A stretch of 62,175 nucleotides of DNA, filler included, from an uncultured Methanosarcinales archaeon (GTDB lineage: Archaea > Nanobdellota > Nanobdellia > Woesearchaeales > CAIVOO01), in NCBI GenBank assembly GCA_964485195.1. It is 7 parts of 7 records of this genome, joined end to end, with 100 filler letters (N's around TTAATTAATTAA, not from the genome) between each part and the next. Parts side by side here need not be neighbours in the genome. Positions count along the whole stretch, not along the records: positions 1 to 20,894 come from CAZAIK010000011.1; 6 more parts are not named here. The stretch is one strand, 5' to 3'. The first letter of the stretch is position 1; each line of letters begins with the position of its first letter. Position numbers: made by a program. This document shows positions 3,001-6,000 of the stretch, in pieces.

Positions 3001-6000
3001 TTCTACAACATTGAAAAAAGAAATGAGATTGAGGAGGTTGAAGCTGAATCTGCATTGCAAGTAGCAGGAGAATTTATAAAAGTTGCAAAAAATTTATTAG
3101 GATAATCAATGCTTCCTAATCAAATAAAACAGCTCATTCTCATACTCAACAACTTCATAGAAATATCCAAGCCTTCTGCACATCTGCTCAACCCATCCCC
3201 TGTAAGGGTGCCTCATTCTCTTGCCTGACAGTGTTCTTGTGGAAAAGCTTGCAACCACCCATCTGCAGGGCAGCTGCCTGATTAATTTTTCAGCCAGCTT
3301 GTGGCCTTTTTCCAGCTCAATGGAGTCAAGAACCTTGAAAAGGAAGCAAATGTCTGCTTTTGGCAGTTTCAGCTTTTTTGTTTTCGCCTCTCTTAAGTTC
3401 AGAAGGTTTGCTTTTCCGTTGATTTTTCTTTTTTTGAAGAAATCATTCACTATTTCAACAACAATGGAGTTAATGTCATAAGCGTAATACTTCGGCTTTG
3501 TTTTCAGGTATTTGTAAGAGAGGGGATTGAGGCCGCACCCCAGATCAAGTATTTTATAGGGATATCCTGTTATGTGGAATATCCTCTGGTATAACTCAGA
3601 ATAAGTCTCCAGCCTTCCCCTTGTTGACTCGTGCTTTTTCAGCAGTTCCTCTGCGCTTGTTATTTTTGTCGGCTTCAGGAAAACACCAGCGCTTTTCCTC
3701 AGGGTTTCCCTTGTTTTCTTGATTATTTCCTTATAGTGTTTTGACTTTCTGGCCCTTTCATAATCCTTGGCAGAGGAAAAAAAATTAATTGTCTTTCTGT
3801 TTTTTTCAATATAACCTATTAATTCGGCTTTTACAAAAGAGTCCATTATTCCGGAAAGCTCTTTCTTGTCCTTGACGTCAGAAACCAGCTGCTTGATAAG
3901 ATTGTCAGGAATGTTATTGCTGTTTATCCTCATTCAATCAGGAATGGTTATTGTTTTTATAAAGCTAACCCAGTCTGGAAAGGGGCTTTCTCTCTGAGAA
4001 ATCCTCATCCATTCCCTTCCAGTATTTTATGCGCTTGTCCCCTATCTGCCAGCAGAGGATTACCGGCCTGTTCTTGTGGACTGCGTAAAAGTTTATTGCG
4101 CCCCTGTCAATGTCCTCAAGGGCCGCGCCTTTTTTTGTAAGTGTCTGCAGTTCCGAGAAAAGCTTGAAGCACAACTGGTGAAATTTCTTGTTGAAGGAAA
4201 CCTCATTGGAGATGTCCTCAAAGTCATCATAATAGGAAATTTCTATCTCACTCAAGACCTCTATGGCCTTGTTGAGTTTCATGATTTTTAGAAGTCTTCT
4301 TCGCACTTCAGGTATGAGCTTTTGTGCCTCCTCAAGCGAGATATACTTTCGTTTCATCTATCCTCCTGGACAAGACCAACAATTATTTAAATGTTTTGAA
4401 AGGTTAAACTTTTAAATAGTTTTCCAGAAAGGGATTTCCGTCGGGGATTAACTTTTTATCTTGTCCAGTGCCTTTTTAGTTTTTAAAGAATCCCCGAAGG
4501 GGTCGGGGCTTTCATTGATAATCCTTATTGAGATGTTGTGTTTTACCAATGCCTTAATTATCTCCTTTATTTCAGGTTCTTTTGTGAGAACGTGCCTTCT
4601 TTCTCCTTTTTCCCCGTATTCTATGCCTGAAAAATGGGCTGTTTTGTGCTTTACCTGCTTGATCTTTTTGCACACCAAATTTAAGTTGATTTTCCCTTTG
4701 TTTCTTGCCTTTAAATGGGCAAAATCAATGCATGTTCCGCAGCCGGTTTCTTTTGAAAGCTTTATCAGCTCTTCCAGGGTTCCGAACTGGCTTTTCTTTC
4801 CCGTGGTTTCAGGGCAAAGAATTACATTCCACTTGTTTTTCCTTATTGTTTCTTGCATATCAAGAACAGCTTCCTTCACTTTTTCATACACTCCCTCAGC
4901 AGAATCCTTGTGATAATAAGCAGGGTGGAATATGACATATTGTGCCTTCAGATGGTGCGCCCTTTCGCAGGAATCCAGTATTCTTTTCTTGCTTGACTTT
5001 ATCTTTTCCTTTTCAGCAGAGTTAAGGTTTATCCAGTAAGGGGCGTGCACGCTCAGGGAAATCCCCATCTTTTTTGCCTTTTCCCCTATCTTTTCAGCTT
5101 CCTCATTGTTCATACTGACGCCGTAGACAAACTCTATTTCCATTGCCTTCAATCCAAGCTCCTTGCATTTTTCCAGCGCATTTATGCTCCCCATTCCCGA
5201 GGCGCCGGCCGGTCCCAGAAGTATTTCTGCCATGATGTGGATTTGGAGTACGAGTTTAAAAGATTTCTGAAAGAATAAACAAAGATTTTTAAATAACAAG
5301 ACAAATAATCAGCCATGGTAAGAAGGTACAGGCATCCCTATTATGAGGGGGCTGAAGGAGGCATTGCAAAGATTCTTGGCATACTTTTTGTCCTTATTGG
5401 AATATACGCTTTGCTGGACTGGTACGGAATATTTTCCATAAGCGCAATCACAGAGGTTTATGTTCTTGTGGGGTGCGCCATAGGCTCAATTCTCGGCGGA
5501 TTGTACATGCTTGGCAGAAGCTCAAGAAACCCTTACAGGTATTAATCGTAGTCTGTTCTTCCGAACTCGCCGTCCCCATTTGCATCCGGGCCGTAAATAA
5601 CCTCGCCTGCCCTCGGACCCCTGTGTTCCAGTTTTGGGTTGAGCTCCCTCACGATTGTTTCGCACGCGCGCAGGTTTTCCTCCAGGCCTTCTGCAGCGCA
5701 CATTCCGTGAACTGTTTCGCTGGTCCCGTGTTTCCTGAAATCCTTCATTACGTGTTTTGCAACCGGGATTTGCCTCATTTTCCTTAATTCAGCATCGTTC
5801 TGGCTGTAATAAGTAAGGGCAACAAGGCCGCCTATCATAGCGAGACCTGTTGCAACTGCAGCTATTTCAGAAGTTACCTCTCTAAAAAGGGATTTCCTTG
5901 CTGGTTCCTGATTCCTTAGATATCGTTTTTTGCTGAAATCTTTCATTTTTACTTCTTGTATTCTGCGTTAGCTCCCCGCTTTTTGAAATATTCATTGCAT

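What a model noticed while it worked through the whole genome (the two positions that open the first line are those of the whole stretch)
3106..3933. Arm/Rmt-type (FmrO family) 16S rRNA methyltransferase homologue is a DPANN-typical gene, kept here although its G1405 ta [...]
g01168 (275 aa) belongs to the FmrO/ArmA/RmtB/Sgm family of 16S rRNA (guanine1405-N7) methyltransferases, known as aminoglycoside-resistance enzymes. The family is rare in bacteria and in other archaea but present in about 40% of Nanobdellota genomes, mostly unnamed. In this genome and its genus mate the gene is intact although 16S rRNA has A at 1405. The DPANN enzymes therefore probably have another or a relaxed target.
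Evidence so far: pfam.tsv: FmrO E 1.1e-21 (model 78-254 of 255). swissprot.tsv: Krm, RmtC, Sgm and Grm at 26-30% id. PDB phmmer: ArmA 3fzg E 8e-14, also RmtC, Sgm and RmtB, with LD(F/L)GCG(F/L)NPL aligned. relatives.tsv: PF07091 in 326/822 order, 775/1860 phylum, 797/10117 Archaea and 1642/189785 Bacteria. find_homologous_proteins: 287 proteins at E<=1e-5; most listed carry no name and the named ones are mostly 'hypothetical protein' of Woesearchaeota/Nanoarchaeota. PF07091 in 5 genomes: present in A1405 genus mate G184 and in G1405 family mates G297 and G246; not found in G367 or G110; 0 of 14 controls. Paper search DPANN+FmrO: 0.
(Added by a program. Inside this text positions count along the whole contig: they may not be those of the stretch shown here. 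"Call 12" and the like, gene names such as g00115 and contig names such as C1 are that model's own, and its searches are not shown. The text may have been shortened before it was handed on; [...] marks where a part breaks off. The agent that wrote the report below was given it as the finding of a first reader that could run no searches.)

Follow-up and report, generated by a model that had tools for sequence, protein, structure and literature searches.

The report
rRNA methylase kept without its target
A tiny symbiotic archaeon keeps, under selection, an enzyme of the family that methylates guanine 1405 of ribosomal RNA although its own ribosome has adenine there, so the enzyme must act elsewhere or accept adenine.

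Summary
ORF 3106-3933(-) is an intact 275-aa FmrO/Arm/Rmt-family methyltransferase: Pfam 74.5 bits, and an AlphaFold model (pLDDT 94) that matches full-length Sgm, RmtF and RmtB. The genome's single assembled 16S has a compensated A1405:U1496 pair, as does its genus mate.

New here:
- A1405:U1496 is recurrent. It occurs in 8 of 199 readable genomes of a 401-genome phylum sample (7 genera), and in at least 116 contigs across all species genomes, including Cardinium bacteria.
- FmrO is in 229 of 401 high-quality genomes of the phylum. It is inherited vertically and sits among housekeeping and translation genes.
- 12 of 14 A1405 genomes of this phylum type keep an intact FmrO.
- In two A1405 genera dS is saturated and omega is 0.16-0.19. 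The catalytic residues are unchanged, and there is no acceleration, special clade or convergent change.

So the selected function does not need G1405.

Against a stronger reading: an apparent A1405-FmrO link (8/8 against 106/191) was not replicated (3/5, 1/5, 0/5). 96% of readable genomes of the phylum have G1405. Archaeal family members have been in print since 2010 and 2013.

The target is unknown: either another nucleotide or N7 of A1405. This is a new variant of a known kind, of moderate interest and directly testable.

The parts
3106..3933 (-). FmrO/Arm/Rmt-family SAM-dependent methyltransferase gene, 275 codons plus stop (3106-3108)
3658..3933 (-). N-terminal helical domain (residues 1-92). 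It is the counterpart of the 30S-docking N1/N2 domain of RmtC and carries an insertion of about 20 residues compared with the bacterial enzymes. The K72 and R75 counterparts of RmtC K47 and R50 are kept. The Y21 counterpart is L and the H54 counterpart is R.
   Evidence: model helices 10-82; full-length fold matches; alignments; coordinates
3109..3657 (-). C-terminal Rossmann-fold catalytic domain (residues 93-275)
   Evidence: Pfam residues 95-270; model strands; coordinates
3520..3549 (-). SAM-binding motif I, LDLGCGLNPL (residues 129-138); D130 and G134 are invariant in 85 homologues
3475..3477 (-). D153, the motif II acidic residue, counterpart of RmtC D160 (SAM ribose contact)
   Evidence: role from PMC10288597 section 8
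3334..3336 (-). K200, counterpart of RmtC K204, the universally conserved lysine that contacts N7 of the flipped base. It is invariant in 85 of 85 homologues, in 44 of 44 proteins from G1405 genomes and in 9 of 9 from A1405 genomes.
   Evidence: role
3193..3249 (-). Residues 229-247, SFSTRTLSGKRMRHPYRGW, counterpart of the RmtC K236 / loop 237-246 region that distorts h44. R231 corresponds to K236, K240 to R241, and the methionine counterpart of M245 is present. The loop is 2 residues shorter.
   Evidence: roles
3965..4357 (-). DUF2203 gene 31 bases upstream on the same strand, probably co-transcribed. It is also near FmrO in G001 and G003, but not in other families.
4448..5299 (-). AP_endonuc_2 (xylose-isomerase-like TIM barrel) gene, further upstream on the same strand; syntenic in G001
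2123..3105 (+). Nucleotidyltransferase (2123-2674) plus HEPN (2677-3105) pair, convergent with FmrO. It is missing from the otherwise syntenic G001 locus, so it is an insertion and not part of the system.

Best explanation
The gene encodes an active, housekeeping, SAM-dependent small-subunit rRNA methyltransferase of the Arm/Rmt (FmrO) fold. It is inherited vertically in this archaeal phylum.

Shown:
- It has the complete two-domain architecture and the full cofactor and catalytic set of the m7G1405 enzymes.
- It is under purifying selection.
- Its own 16S rRNA has A1405:U1496.
So its selected product here is not m7G1405.

Inferred, and the version I commit to: the enzymes of this archaeal clade dock on the small subunit by their diverged N-terminal domain and methylate a nucleotide other than G1405, in or near the decoding centre, in A1405 and G1405 lineages alike. 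That would explain why the enzyme does not change at all when position 1405 changes. The role is fine-tuning or biogenesis of the ribosome, not antibiotic resistance.
For: - Fold and residues. The model has pLDDT 94.1. Its best matches are full-length Sgm, RmtF and RmtB (TM 0.73-0.83, 273-288 columns), and generic class I methyltransferases follow only at E about 1e-7. The counterparts of S107, D160, K204, aromatic Y60 and M245 are kept.
- Selection. G000 against G001, both A1405: 62% aa identity, dN 0.298, dS 1.84, omega 0.16. G077 against G168, both A1405: omega 0.19. Same-genus G1405 pairs give 0.04-0.16 where dS could be computed. A neutral copy stayed open in 1 of 2000 simulations at 0.3 substitutions per site and in 0 of 2000 at 0.5 and 0.9.
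- No change of the enzyme with the base. FmrO proteins of A1405 lineages group with those of their own G1405 relatives (SH-aLRT 96-99), and their end branches are not longer. They keep 29-38 of 38 conserved columns against 24-38 in the G1405 set, and no convergent column was found. There is no A-specific change at the K236 counterpart.
- Clade-wide departures from the m7G1405 enzymes. In 44 proteins from G1405 genomes the Y21 counterpart is L in 32, the H54 counterpart is R in 30, and R211 is not conserved. All three residues are needed for RmtC activity. The N1 subdomain also carries an insertion of about 20 residues.
- Housekeeping context. Neighbours include aminoacyl-tRNA synthetases, RsmB/F, NMD3 with eIF-1A, a Pno1/Krr1-like KH protein, eRF1 and an ABCE1-like protein. 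None is a mobile or antibiotic gene. 229 of 401 genomes carry the family.
- Related evidence. A bioRxiv preprint reports no change in aminoglycoside MIC when a CPR homologue annotated as a G1405 methyltransferase was expressed in E. coli (10.64898/2026.07.13.738296, passages read).
Against: - No alternative target is identified. A screen of 27 16S genes found no G that is invariant in FmrO+ genomes and variable in FmrO- genomes (low power).
- The residues that flip and contact nucleotide 1405 in RmtC are all conserved (K204 and M245, with a basic residue at R241, an aromatic one at Y60, and K47 and R50). That fits action at the same site just as well.
- 191 of 199 readable genomes of the phylum have G1405.
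- Enzyme families usually keep their target site (general knowledge).
- The preprint showed no proof that the protein was expressed, in the passages I read, and its Table 1 is an image I could not see.
- Activity was not tested.
Confidence: 0.4

Rival explanations
1. Same site, relaxed base specificity. The enzyme docks as RmtC does, flips the purine at 1405 and methylates its N7 whether it is G (most of the phylum) or A (this genus). Here that would give N7-methyladenosine at 1405.
For: The whole site-1405 machinery is conserved and unchanged in A1405 lineages: the K204 counterpart is K in 9 of 9, M/L/I at 245 in 9 of 9, an aromatic residue at 60 in 9 of 9, and a basic residue at the R241 position in 8 of 9. 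In the RmtC-30S structure only K204, K236 and the stacking Y60 touch the base, and K204 contacts N7, an atom that both purines have (PMC10288597 section 8). The K236 counterpart is free to vary in this clade, being K in only 22 of 44. An enzyme indifferent to the base would explain why it does not change when the base changes.
Against: I know of no natural N7-methyladenosine in RNA and of no enzyme that makes it (recalled, not searched as such). Adenine N7 is a poorer nucleophile than guanine N7 (general chemistry). The clade lacks Y21 and R211, and mostly H54, which RmtC needs to reach G1405.
Confidence: 0.3
2. The enzyme is strictly G1405-specific. In this genus it has lost its rRNA substrate and is kept for another reason: a methylation-independent role in small-subunit assembly, or a second substrate such as a tRNA.
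For: Retention under selection without the canonical base. Neighbours are often ribosome-biogenesis genes such as NMD3 and a Pno1/Krr1-like KH protein. Other rRNA methyltransferases, such as Dim1/KsgA and Bud23, are needed for assembly independently of catalysis (recalled, not checked here).
Against: A purely structural role would not keep the SAM-binding and catalytic residues invariant in all 9 A1405-lineage proteins, nor an omega as low as in G1405 lineages. No second-substrate domain is visible in the 275-aa protein.
Confidence: 0.15
3. It is an ordinary aminoglycoside-resistance (self-protection) gene that became useless after the G1405A change and is on its way out.
For: Family name and relatives. 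2 of 5 newly tested A1405 genomes of this phylum type had no FmrO, which could be loss. One G1405 relative, G356, has only a 179-aa open frame.
Against: dS is saturated while omega is 0.16-0.19 in two A1405 genera. Neutral copies do not stay open. 12 of 14 A1405 genomes keep an intact copy. Inheritance is vertical and the context is housekeeping, with no mobile or biosynthetic genes.
Confidence: 0.05
4. Artefact: the A1405 16S does not belong to this organism, or a second, unassembled rRNA operon has G1405.
For: The 16S is split over two contig ends. The laid runs are contigs, which drop minor variants. Some MAGs clearly carry foreign 16S contigs, for example L098.
Against: The 3' part of the 16S sits on a 126-kb contig. 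The genus mate, assembled separately, has the same A1405:U1496 inside a contig. The change is compensated. Seven further genomes of the phylum sample show A1405:U1496 together with FmrO. An independent study's contig carries it (X3).
Confidence: 0.05

Closest known systems
Acquired and producer 16S rRNA (guanine1405-N7) methyltransferases: RmtC, RmtB, RmtF, ArmA, Sgm (Arm/Rmt/Kgm family, Pfam FmrO)
   Same: Homologous over both domains. Shares the SAM motifs and the counterparts of S107, D160, K204, aromatic Y60, M245, K47 and R50, with a basic residue at R241.
   Different: 26-31% identity. Below the NCBIfam equivalog cut-off. Y21 is L, H54 is R, R211 is L, and the N1 subdomain has an insertion of about 20 residues. 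Chromosomal, vertically inherited, and set among housekeeping genes. Its own rRNA lacks G1405.
NEQ545 of Nanoarchaeum equitans, 'the first archaeal ortholog' of the Arm family (Husain et al. 2010, PMC2896518), and the Nanoarchaeota signature gene of Podar et al. 2013 (PMC3655853)
   Same: Same kind of archaeal family member: catalytic motifs conserved, N-terminal domain diverged but helical (passages read). This is what I find here.
   Different: Those papers note only that the gene is present. In the passages I read they do not mention the base at 1405, prevalence, or selection. I did not align NEQ545 itself.
CPR (Patescibacteria) homologues annotated as 16S rRNA methyltransferases
   Same: One named homologue of the window's protein is from 'Candidatus Buchananbacteria' at 41% identity (P0085). 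A preprint found no aminoglycoside MIC change when such a CPR gene was expressed in E. coli and doubts a resistance role.
   Different: Bacterial hosts. I did not test how the preprint's tested protein relates to this one. Its supplements are closed and its Table 1 is an image.
NpmA/KamB m1A1408 methyltransferases
   Same: They act on the neighbouring h44 nucleotide from an overlapping 30S docking surface (stated in PMC10288597 section 6). This shows that one docking surface can serve another target and another base.
   Different: A different family: no Pfam or NCBIfam hit of that kind here. They have no N-terminal helical domain of the Rmt type (recalled).
Housekeeping m7G rRNA methyltransferases RsmG (m7G527) and Bud23 (m7G1575)
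   Same: Constitutive N7-guanine methylation of small-subunit rRNA as a normal ribosome feature. This is what the gene's conservation and context suggest it works like.
   Different: Unrelated guanine-binding sites and families (PMC2896518 section 21, passages read). No sequence hit here.

Membership tests
Pfam FmrO (PF07091) / Arm-Rmt structural family | Significant match to the family profile above the curated cut-off | tested here: met
   74.5 bits against a cut-off of 27; the best PDB sequence hits are all family members
Pfam FmrO (PF07091) / Arm-Rmt structural family | Two-domain fold: N-terminal helical docking domain plus class I Rossmann methyltransferase domain | tested here: met
   Model pLDDT 94.1. 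Foldseek TM 0.73-0.83 to full-length Sgm, RmtF and RmtB over 273-288 columns.
Pfam FmrO (PF07091) / Arm-Rmt structural family | SAM-binding set: motif I glycine-rich loop, motif II acidic residue (RmtC D160), S107 | tested here: met
   LDLGCGLNPL, D153 and S103
16S rRNA (guanine1405-N7) methyltransferase (functional class; NCBIfam NF000466 equivalog) | Score at or above the equivalog cut-off | tested here: not met
   129 bits against a cut-off of 250
16S rRNA (guanine1405-N7) methyltransferase (functional class; NCBIfam NF000466 equivalog) | Universally conserved K204 (contacts N7), aromatic Y60, and hydrophobic M245 | tested here: met
   K200, F85 and a methionine in the loop. Roles from PMC10288597.
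16S rRNA (guanine1405-N7) methyltransferase (functional class; NCBIfam NF000466 equivalog) | Near-universal, functionally essential Y21, H54 and R211 (docking and h44 distortion) | tested here: not met
   L, R and L in this protein. In 44 proteins from G1405 genomes the counts are L 32 / Y 6 / F 4 at Y21, R 30 / H 7 at H54, and no conservation at R211. The paper's conservation table (SI Table S1) was not seen.
16S rRNA (guanine1405-N7) methyltransferase (functional class; NCBIfam NF000466 equivalog) | A guanine at position 1405 of the organism's own 16S rRNA (the substrate) | tested here: not met
   A1405 paired with U1496, also in genus mate G001
16S rRNA (guanine1405-N7) methyltransferase (functional class; NCBIfam NF000466 equivalog) | m7G1405 formation, and resistance to 4,6-disubstituted deoxystreptamine aminoglycosides | not testable with these tools
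A related CPR gene gave no MIC change in E. coli (preprint).
Acquired (mobile) resistance methyltransferase | Location on plasmids or transposons, or patchy distribution driven by horizontal transfer | tested here: not met
   The gene is chromosomal and syntenic with the genus mate. The gene tree follows organismal families. All 1580 plasmid hits are below 60% identity, and the listed ones are at 26-43%.

The most novel reading that the evidence does not exclude
The enzyme N7-methylates adenine at position 1405, so this genus and about a dozen other A1405 lineages carry m7A in the decoding centre. To my knowledge that RNA modification has not been described. It would be made by a natural relative of the clinical pan-aminoglycoside-resistance methyltransferases whose base specificity is relaxed.
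Probability: 0.25. Interest if true: 0.85.

Novelty: new variant of a known kind. Interest (0 to 1): 0.55.

Why it matters
The Arm/Rmt enzymes are the most feared aminoglycoside-resistance determinants, and their natural history outside antibiotic producers and pathogens is almost unknown.

This work shows three things:
- The largest natural reservoir of the family examined here is a vertically inherited, housekeeping-type gene of ultra-small archaea.
- The supposedly fixed G1405:C1496 pair has switched to A:U many times in streamlined symbionts.
- The enzyme survives that switch under selection.

Together these amount to a natural experiment which says the family's ancestral or housekeeping job is not simply m7G1405. 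Two or three enzymes tested on two kinds of subunit would settle whether the family holds a new target site or a new modification. Either result would bear on how resistance methyltransferases arise from housekeeping ones.

It is also a warning for annotation. These genes are being counted as resistance genes in resistome surveys of DPANN and CPR genomes.

Tried and rejected
1. Positive link 'A1405 occurs only with FmrO'. In the phylum sample FmrO+ was 8 of 8 with A1405 against 106 of 191 with G1405 (Fisher one-sided p 0.010, not corrected for phylogeny). A rough control by family prevalence gave about 0.03 (my arithmetic). It was not replicated: 3 of 5 new A1405 genomes of this phylum type, 1 of 5 A1405 genomes of other DPANN phyla (one negative is a complete chromosome), and 0 of 5 A1405 bacteria, including complete chromosomes. 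Rejected: A1405 does not need FmrO.

2. A second sample of the phylum with min_completeness 50 returned the same 401 genomes.

3. A special 'A-type' FmrO subfamily or horizontal transfer. Rejected by the tree: the A1405 label needs 7 changes, and each protein sits with its own family. G011 was left out of the tree as partial.

4. Convergent or lineage-specific substitutions in A1405 lineages. None was found; at most 4 of 7 lineages deviate at one column, and conservatively. The K236 counterpart shows no A-specific pattern (that script stopped with an error after printing the rows I used, so the four newest proteins were not examined).

5. Screen for an alternative target: a purine invariant in 16 FmrO+ 16S genes but variable in 11 FmrO- ones. 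G006 was left out as 64% complete, and several rows are partial. One column turned up, an A 82 bases upstream of 1405, and no G. The test has low power and I draw nothing from it.

6. dN/dS for 7 of 14 pairs could not be computed because dS was saturated.

7. The first small alignment showed the R241 counterpart as deleted. The larger alignment shows K or R there, and I use the latter.

8. Reads: only Logan contigs were served, so minor variants, expression and RNA ends cannot be judged. The RNA run X8 covers conserved rRNA of many organisms and says nothing about this gene.

10. Paper searches found nothing on natural A1405 or on the function of archaeal FmrO genes: 'G1405A' gave 2 irrelevant hits, 'FmrO' gave 65 hits with none on archaea among the 25 listed, and likewise.
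Full report
**1. The observation**

The window has an ATG-started open frame of 275 codons at 3106-3933 on the minus strand.
- It matches Pfam FmrO at 74.5 bits against a cut-off of 27.
- It matches the generic Rmt model of NCBIfam at 129 bits over residues 61-272, below that model's equivalog cut-off of 250.
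- By sequence its best solved relatives are ArmA, RmtC, RmtF, Sgm and RmtB, with E from 8e-14 to 4.5e-11.
- It is the only copy in a 1.126-Mb genome rated 99.5% complete.

The genome's 16S rRNA is assembled once, split over two contig ends. The 3' part sits at the end of a 126-kb contig. It reads A at E. coli position 1405 and U at 1496, where the archaeal consensus has G and C. Infernal scores the pair as canonical. Genus mate G001, assembled separately, has the same two letters and an intact orthologue. Contigs from three DNA runs of two studies cover both positions without a differing letter. Two of those runs may be the source sample, and contigs cannot exclude a minor variant.

**2. What the protein is**

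An AlphaFold model built on 85 homologues has mean pLDDT 94.1. Foldseek places it with full-length Sgm (TM 0.74/0.78), RmtF (0.77/0.81) and RmtB (0.73/0.83) over 273-288 columns. Unrelated class I methyltransferases follow only at E about 1e-7 and TM of 0.5 or less. In the exhaustive profile-free search, too, most of the 150 listed relatives align from about residue 14 to 274.

I took the functionally tested residues of RmtC from sections 6-8 of PMC10288597. I mapped them through alignments with RmtC, RmtB and ArmA fetched from plasmid records.

Kept in this protein:
- S103 and D153 (cofactor contacts).
- K200, the universally conserved lysine that touches N7 of the flipped base.
- F85, the aromatic residue stacked between cofactor and base.
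- The loop methionine, and a basic residue at the R241 position.
- The docking residues K72 and R75.

Not kept, in this protein and in most of the archaeal clade, whatever their 1405 base:
- Y21 (here L).
- H54 (here R).
- R211 (here L).

The archaeal proteins also carry an insertion of about 20 residues in the first helical subdomain.

**3. Distribution**
- 15 of 41 relatives carry the family.
- 229 of 401 genomes of the phylum sample carry it, all at least 90% complete; by genus the count is 150 of 281.
- 0 of 14 control genomes carry it.
- In 1.84 billion cluster representatives there are 1375 relatives at E up to 1e-3 and 222 at E up to 1e-30.
- Of 287 relatives in the other collection, the named ones are hypothetical proteins of Woesearchaeota or Nanoarchaeota, plus one CPR bacterium.

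The phylum counts include four handles flagged as unpublished. G264 and G410 are FmrO+ with G1405. G377 has G1405 and no FmrO found. G341 is FmrO+ with no readable site. Without them the figures are 226 of 397 and 104 of 188, and no claim about A1405 rests on them.

**4. How unusual is A1405?**

In the relatives it is confined to this genus: 2 of 22 readable genomes. In the phylum sample 199 of 401 genomes have a readable site. Eight of them have a non-G, always A. They fall in 7 genera of 7 families: G000, G360, G060, G077 with G168, G087, G365 and G387. All have U1496. G387 is doubtful: the fragment is on a 1.5-kb contig, has a truncated helix 44, and that genome has a second match.

- 59 are archaeal-type and 21 bacterial-type, judged by the letter before ACACAC.
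- 77 of the 78 with a readable partner have U1496.
- By their titles they include many Iainarchaeota, Aenigmarchaeota, Micrarchaeota and Woese-, Pace- and Nanoarchaeota.
- Among bacteria they include five Cardinium and two other Amoebophilaceae records, and several complete chromosomes.

So the G1405:C1496 pair has switched to A:U many times, mostly in small symbionts.

**5. Does FmrO care?**

All 8 A1405 genomes of the sample, plus G001, carry an intact FmrO, against 106 of 191 G1405 genomes. That looked like a positive link, but it did not survive replication.
- 3 of 5 further A1405 genomes of this phylum type have FmrO (completeness not given).
- 1 of 5 A1405 genomes of other DPANN phyla have it, and one negative is a complete chromosome.
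- 0 of 5 A1405 bacteria have it.

In four of the seven families concerned every sampled genome has FmrO anyway: f94 10/10, f98 6/6, f99 4/4, f55 4/4.

What remains is the reverse statement: where FmrO exists, losing G1405 does not lead to losing FmrO (12 of 14 genomes).

**6. Selection**

I fetched 50 further FmrO loci, and all gave intact frames.

In a 64-row tree rooted on the three bacterial enzymes, the A1405-lineage proteins are scattered. Each groups with the proteins of its own G1405 relatives:
- G060 with G068 and G196.
- G087 with G226 and G267.
- G077 and G168 with G091.
- G000 and G001 with G003, then G005 and G004.

The label needs 7 changes, and end branches are not longer in A1405 lineages.

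Between the two A1405 species of this genus, dN is 0.298, dS is 1.84 and omega is 0.16. Between the two of genus g215 omega is 0.19. G1405 same-genus pairs give 0.04-0.16 where dS is computable. A neutral copy of this gene stayed open in 1 of 2000 simulations at 0.3 substitutions per site and in none at 0.5 or 0.9. This argument assumes that A1405:U1496 was present in each pair's common ancestor, which is the parsimonious reading of a shared double change.

The nine A1405-lineage proteins keep K204, S107, D/E160, the aromatic residue at 60 and M/L/I at 245 in 9 of 9. They keep 29-38 of 38 conserved columns, against 24-38 (mean 34.3) in the G1405 set. They show no convergent substitution. There is no A-specific change at the base-contacting K236 position.

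**7. Context**

The genus mate has the same order: AP endonuclease, DUF2203, FmrO, cation/proton exchanger. In the window a nucleotidyltransferase-HEPN pair has been inserted between FmrO and the exchanger.

In other families the neighbours differ but are housekeeping genes, often of translation or ribosome biogenesis:
- aminoacyl-tRNA synthetases;
- an RsmB/F methyltransferase;
- NMD3 with eIF-1A;
- a Pno1/Krr1-like KH protein;
- eRF1;
- an ABCE1-like protein.

No mobile-element or antibiotic-biosynthesis genes were seen.

**8. Explanation**

Shown: an intact, selected, catalytically complete Arm/Rmt-fold methyltransferase in an organism without G1405. Hence its selected product is not m7G1405.

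Inferred: because the enzyme is indistinguishable between A1405 and G1405 lineages, it most likely does the same thing in both. That leaves two main readings.
- The whole archaeal clade has a target other than G1405. This is my choice, at 0.4. It is favoured by the clade-wide loss of Y21, H54 and R211, the inserted subdomain, and a preprint's negative MIC result for a CPR homologue.
- It acts at 1405 on either purine, which here would give m7A (0.3). This is favoured by the intact site-1405 machinery and by the fact that RmtC touches the base only through K204, K236 and Y60.

Less likely readings are a strictly G-specific enzyme kept for a non-catalytic or second role (0.15), a decaying resistance gene (0.05), and an artefact (0.05).

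**9. Comparison and novelty**

By homology and fold the protein is a member of the FmrO family. It cannot be filed in the functional class 'guanine1405-N7 methyltransferase': its own rRNA has no guanine there, three near-universal functional residues are missing, and the equivalog score is not reached.

Archaeal members have been in print since 2010 (NEQ545; PMC2896518, passages read) and 2013 (PMC3655853, passages read).

I found nothing in print on natural A1405:U1496, on the family's prevalence in these archaea, or on retention without G1405. The library lacks most subscription journals. I did not see the supplements of the three papers or of the preprint.

I rate this a new variant of a known kind, of moderate interest. 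A short series of methylation assays would decide between a new target and a new modification.

Noticed in passing
window 2123-3105 (+): A nucleotidyltransferase (MNT-like) and HEPN gene pair is inserted between FmrO and the cation/proton exchanger. It is missing from the otherwise syntenic locus of genus mate G001 (L013). It looks like a mobile toxin-antitoxin-type module.
   Followed up: partly
window 7252-14160 (-): An open frame of 2302 aa with an N-terminal signal-like segment, very many N-x-S/T sequons and several near-identical internal repeats of roughly 100 aa. It is probably a giant surface protein.
   Followed up: no
window 20895-62175: According to the genome tool, only places 1-20894 of the window lie on contig C11. 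The rest is N or lies off that contig.
   Followed up: no
L098-L177: The compensated A1405:U1496 pair is widespread outside this phylum. It occurs in many Iainarchaeota-titled MAGs, Aenigmarchaeota and Micrarchaeota, and in bacteria in five Cardinium and two other Amoebophilaceae records and several complete chromosomes. FmrO was not found in the 9 of 10 I tested. One locus, L114, has A1405 with C1496.
   Followed up: partly
L053 (G387), 889-2274 (-): Here FmrO is fused to a second class I methyltransferase domain (461 aa, with Methyltransf_11 at residues 305-398) and lies next to eRF1. The same genome's A1405 16S fragment (L052) is on a 1.5-kb contig and has a drastically shortened helix 44.
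   Followed up: no
L056 (G356), 322-859: A G1405 genome of family f98 has only a 179-aa open frame for FmrO, well inside its contig. It may be a truncated or decaying copy.
   Followed up: no
16S of G000 (L003/L022), and of G001, G019 and G060: Positions 1409 and 1491 read U and C, and Infernal marks this as a non-standard pair, where E. coli has C-G. Other relatives have A and U there. The decoding-site helix of this phylum therefore differs from the bacterial aminoglycoside site in more than position 1405.
   Followed up: partly
L098: A contig with a 16S helix 44 of this archaeal phylum's type sits in a MAG titled as a Desulfonema bacterium, so it is probably mis-binned. Titles of MAG contigs that carry rRNA should be read with care.
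   Followed up: no
P0085: A CPR bacterium ('Candidatus Buchananbacteria') encodes a homologue 41% identical to the window's protein, as close as many archaeal ones. This suggests exchange between the two groups of ultra-small organisms.
   Followed up: no
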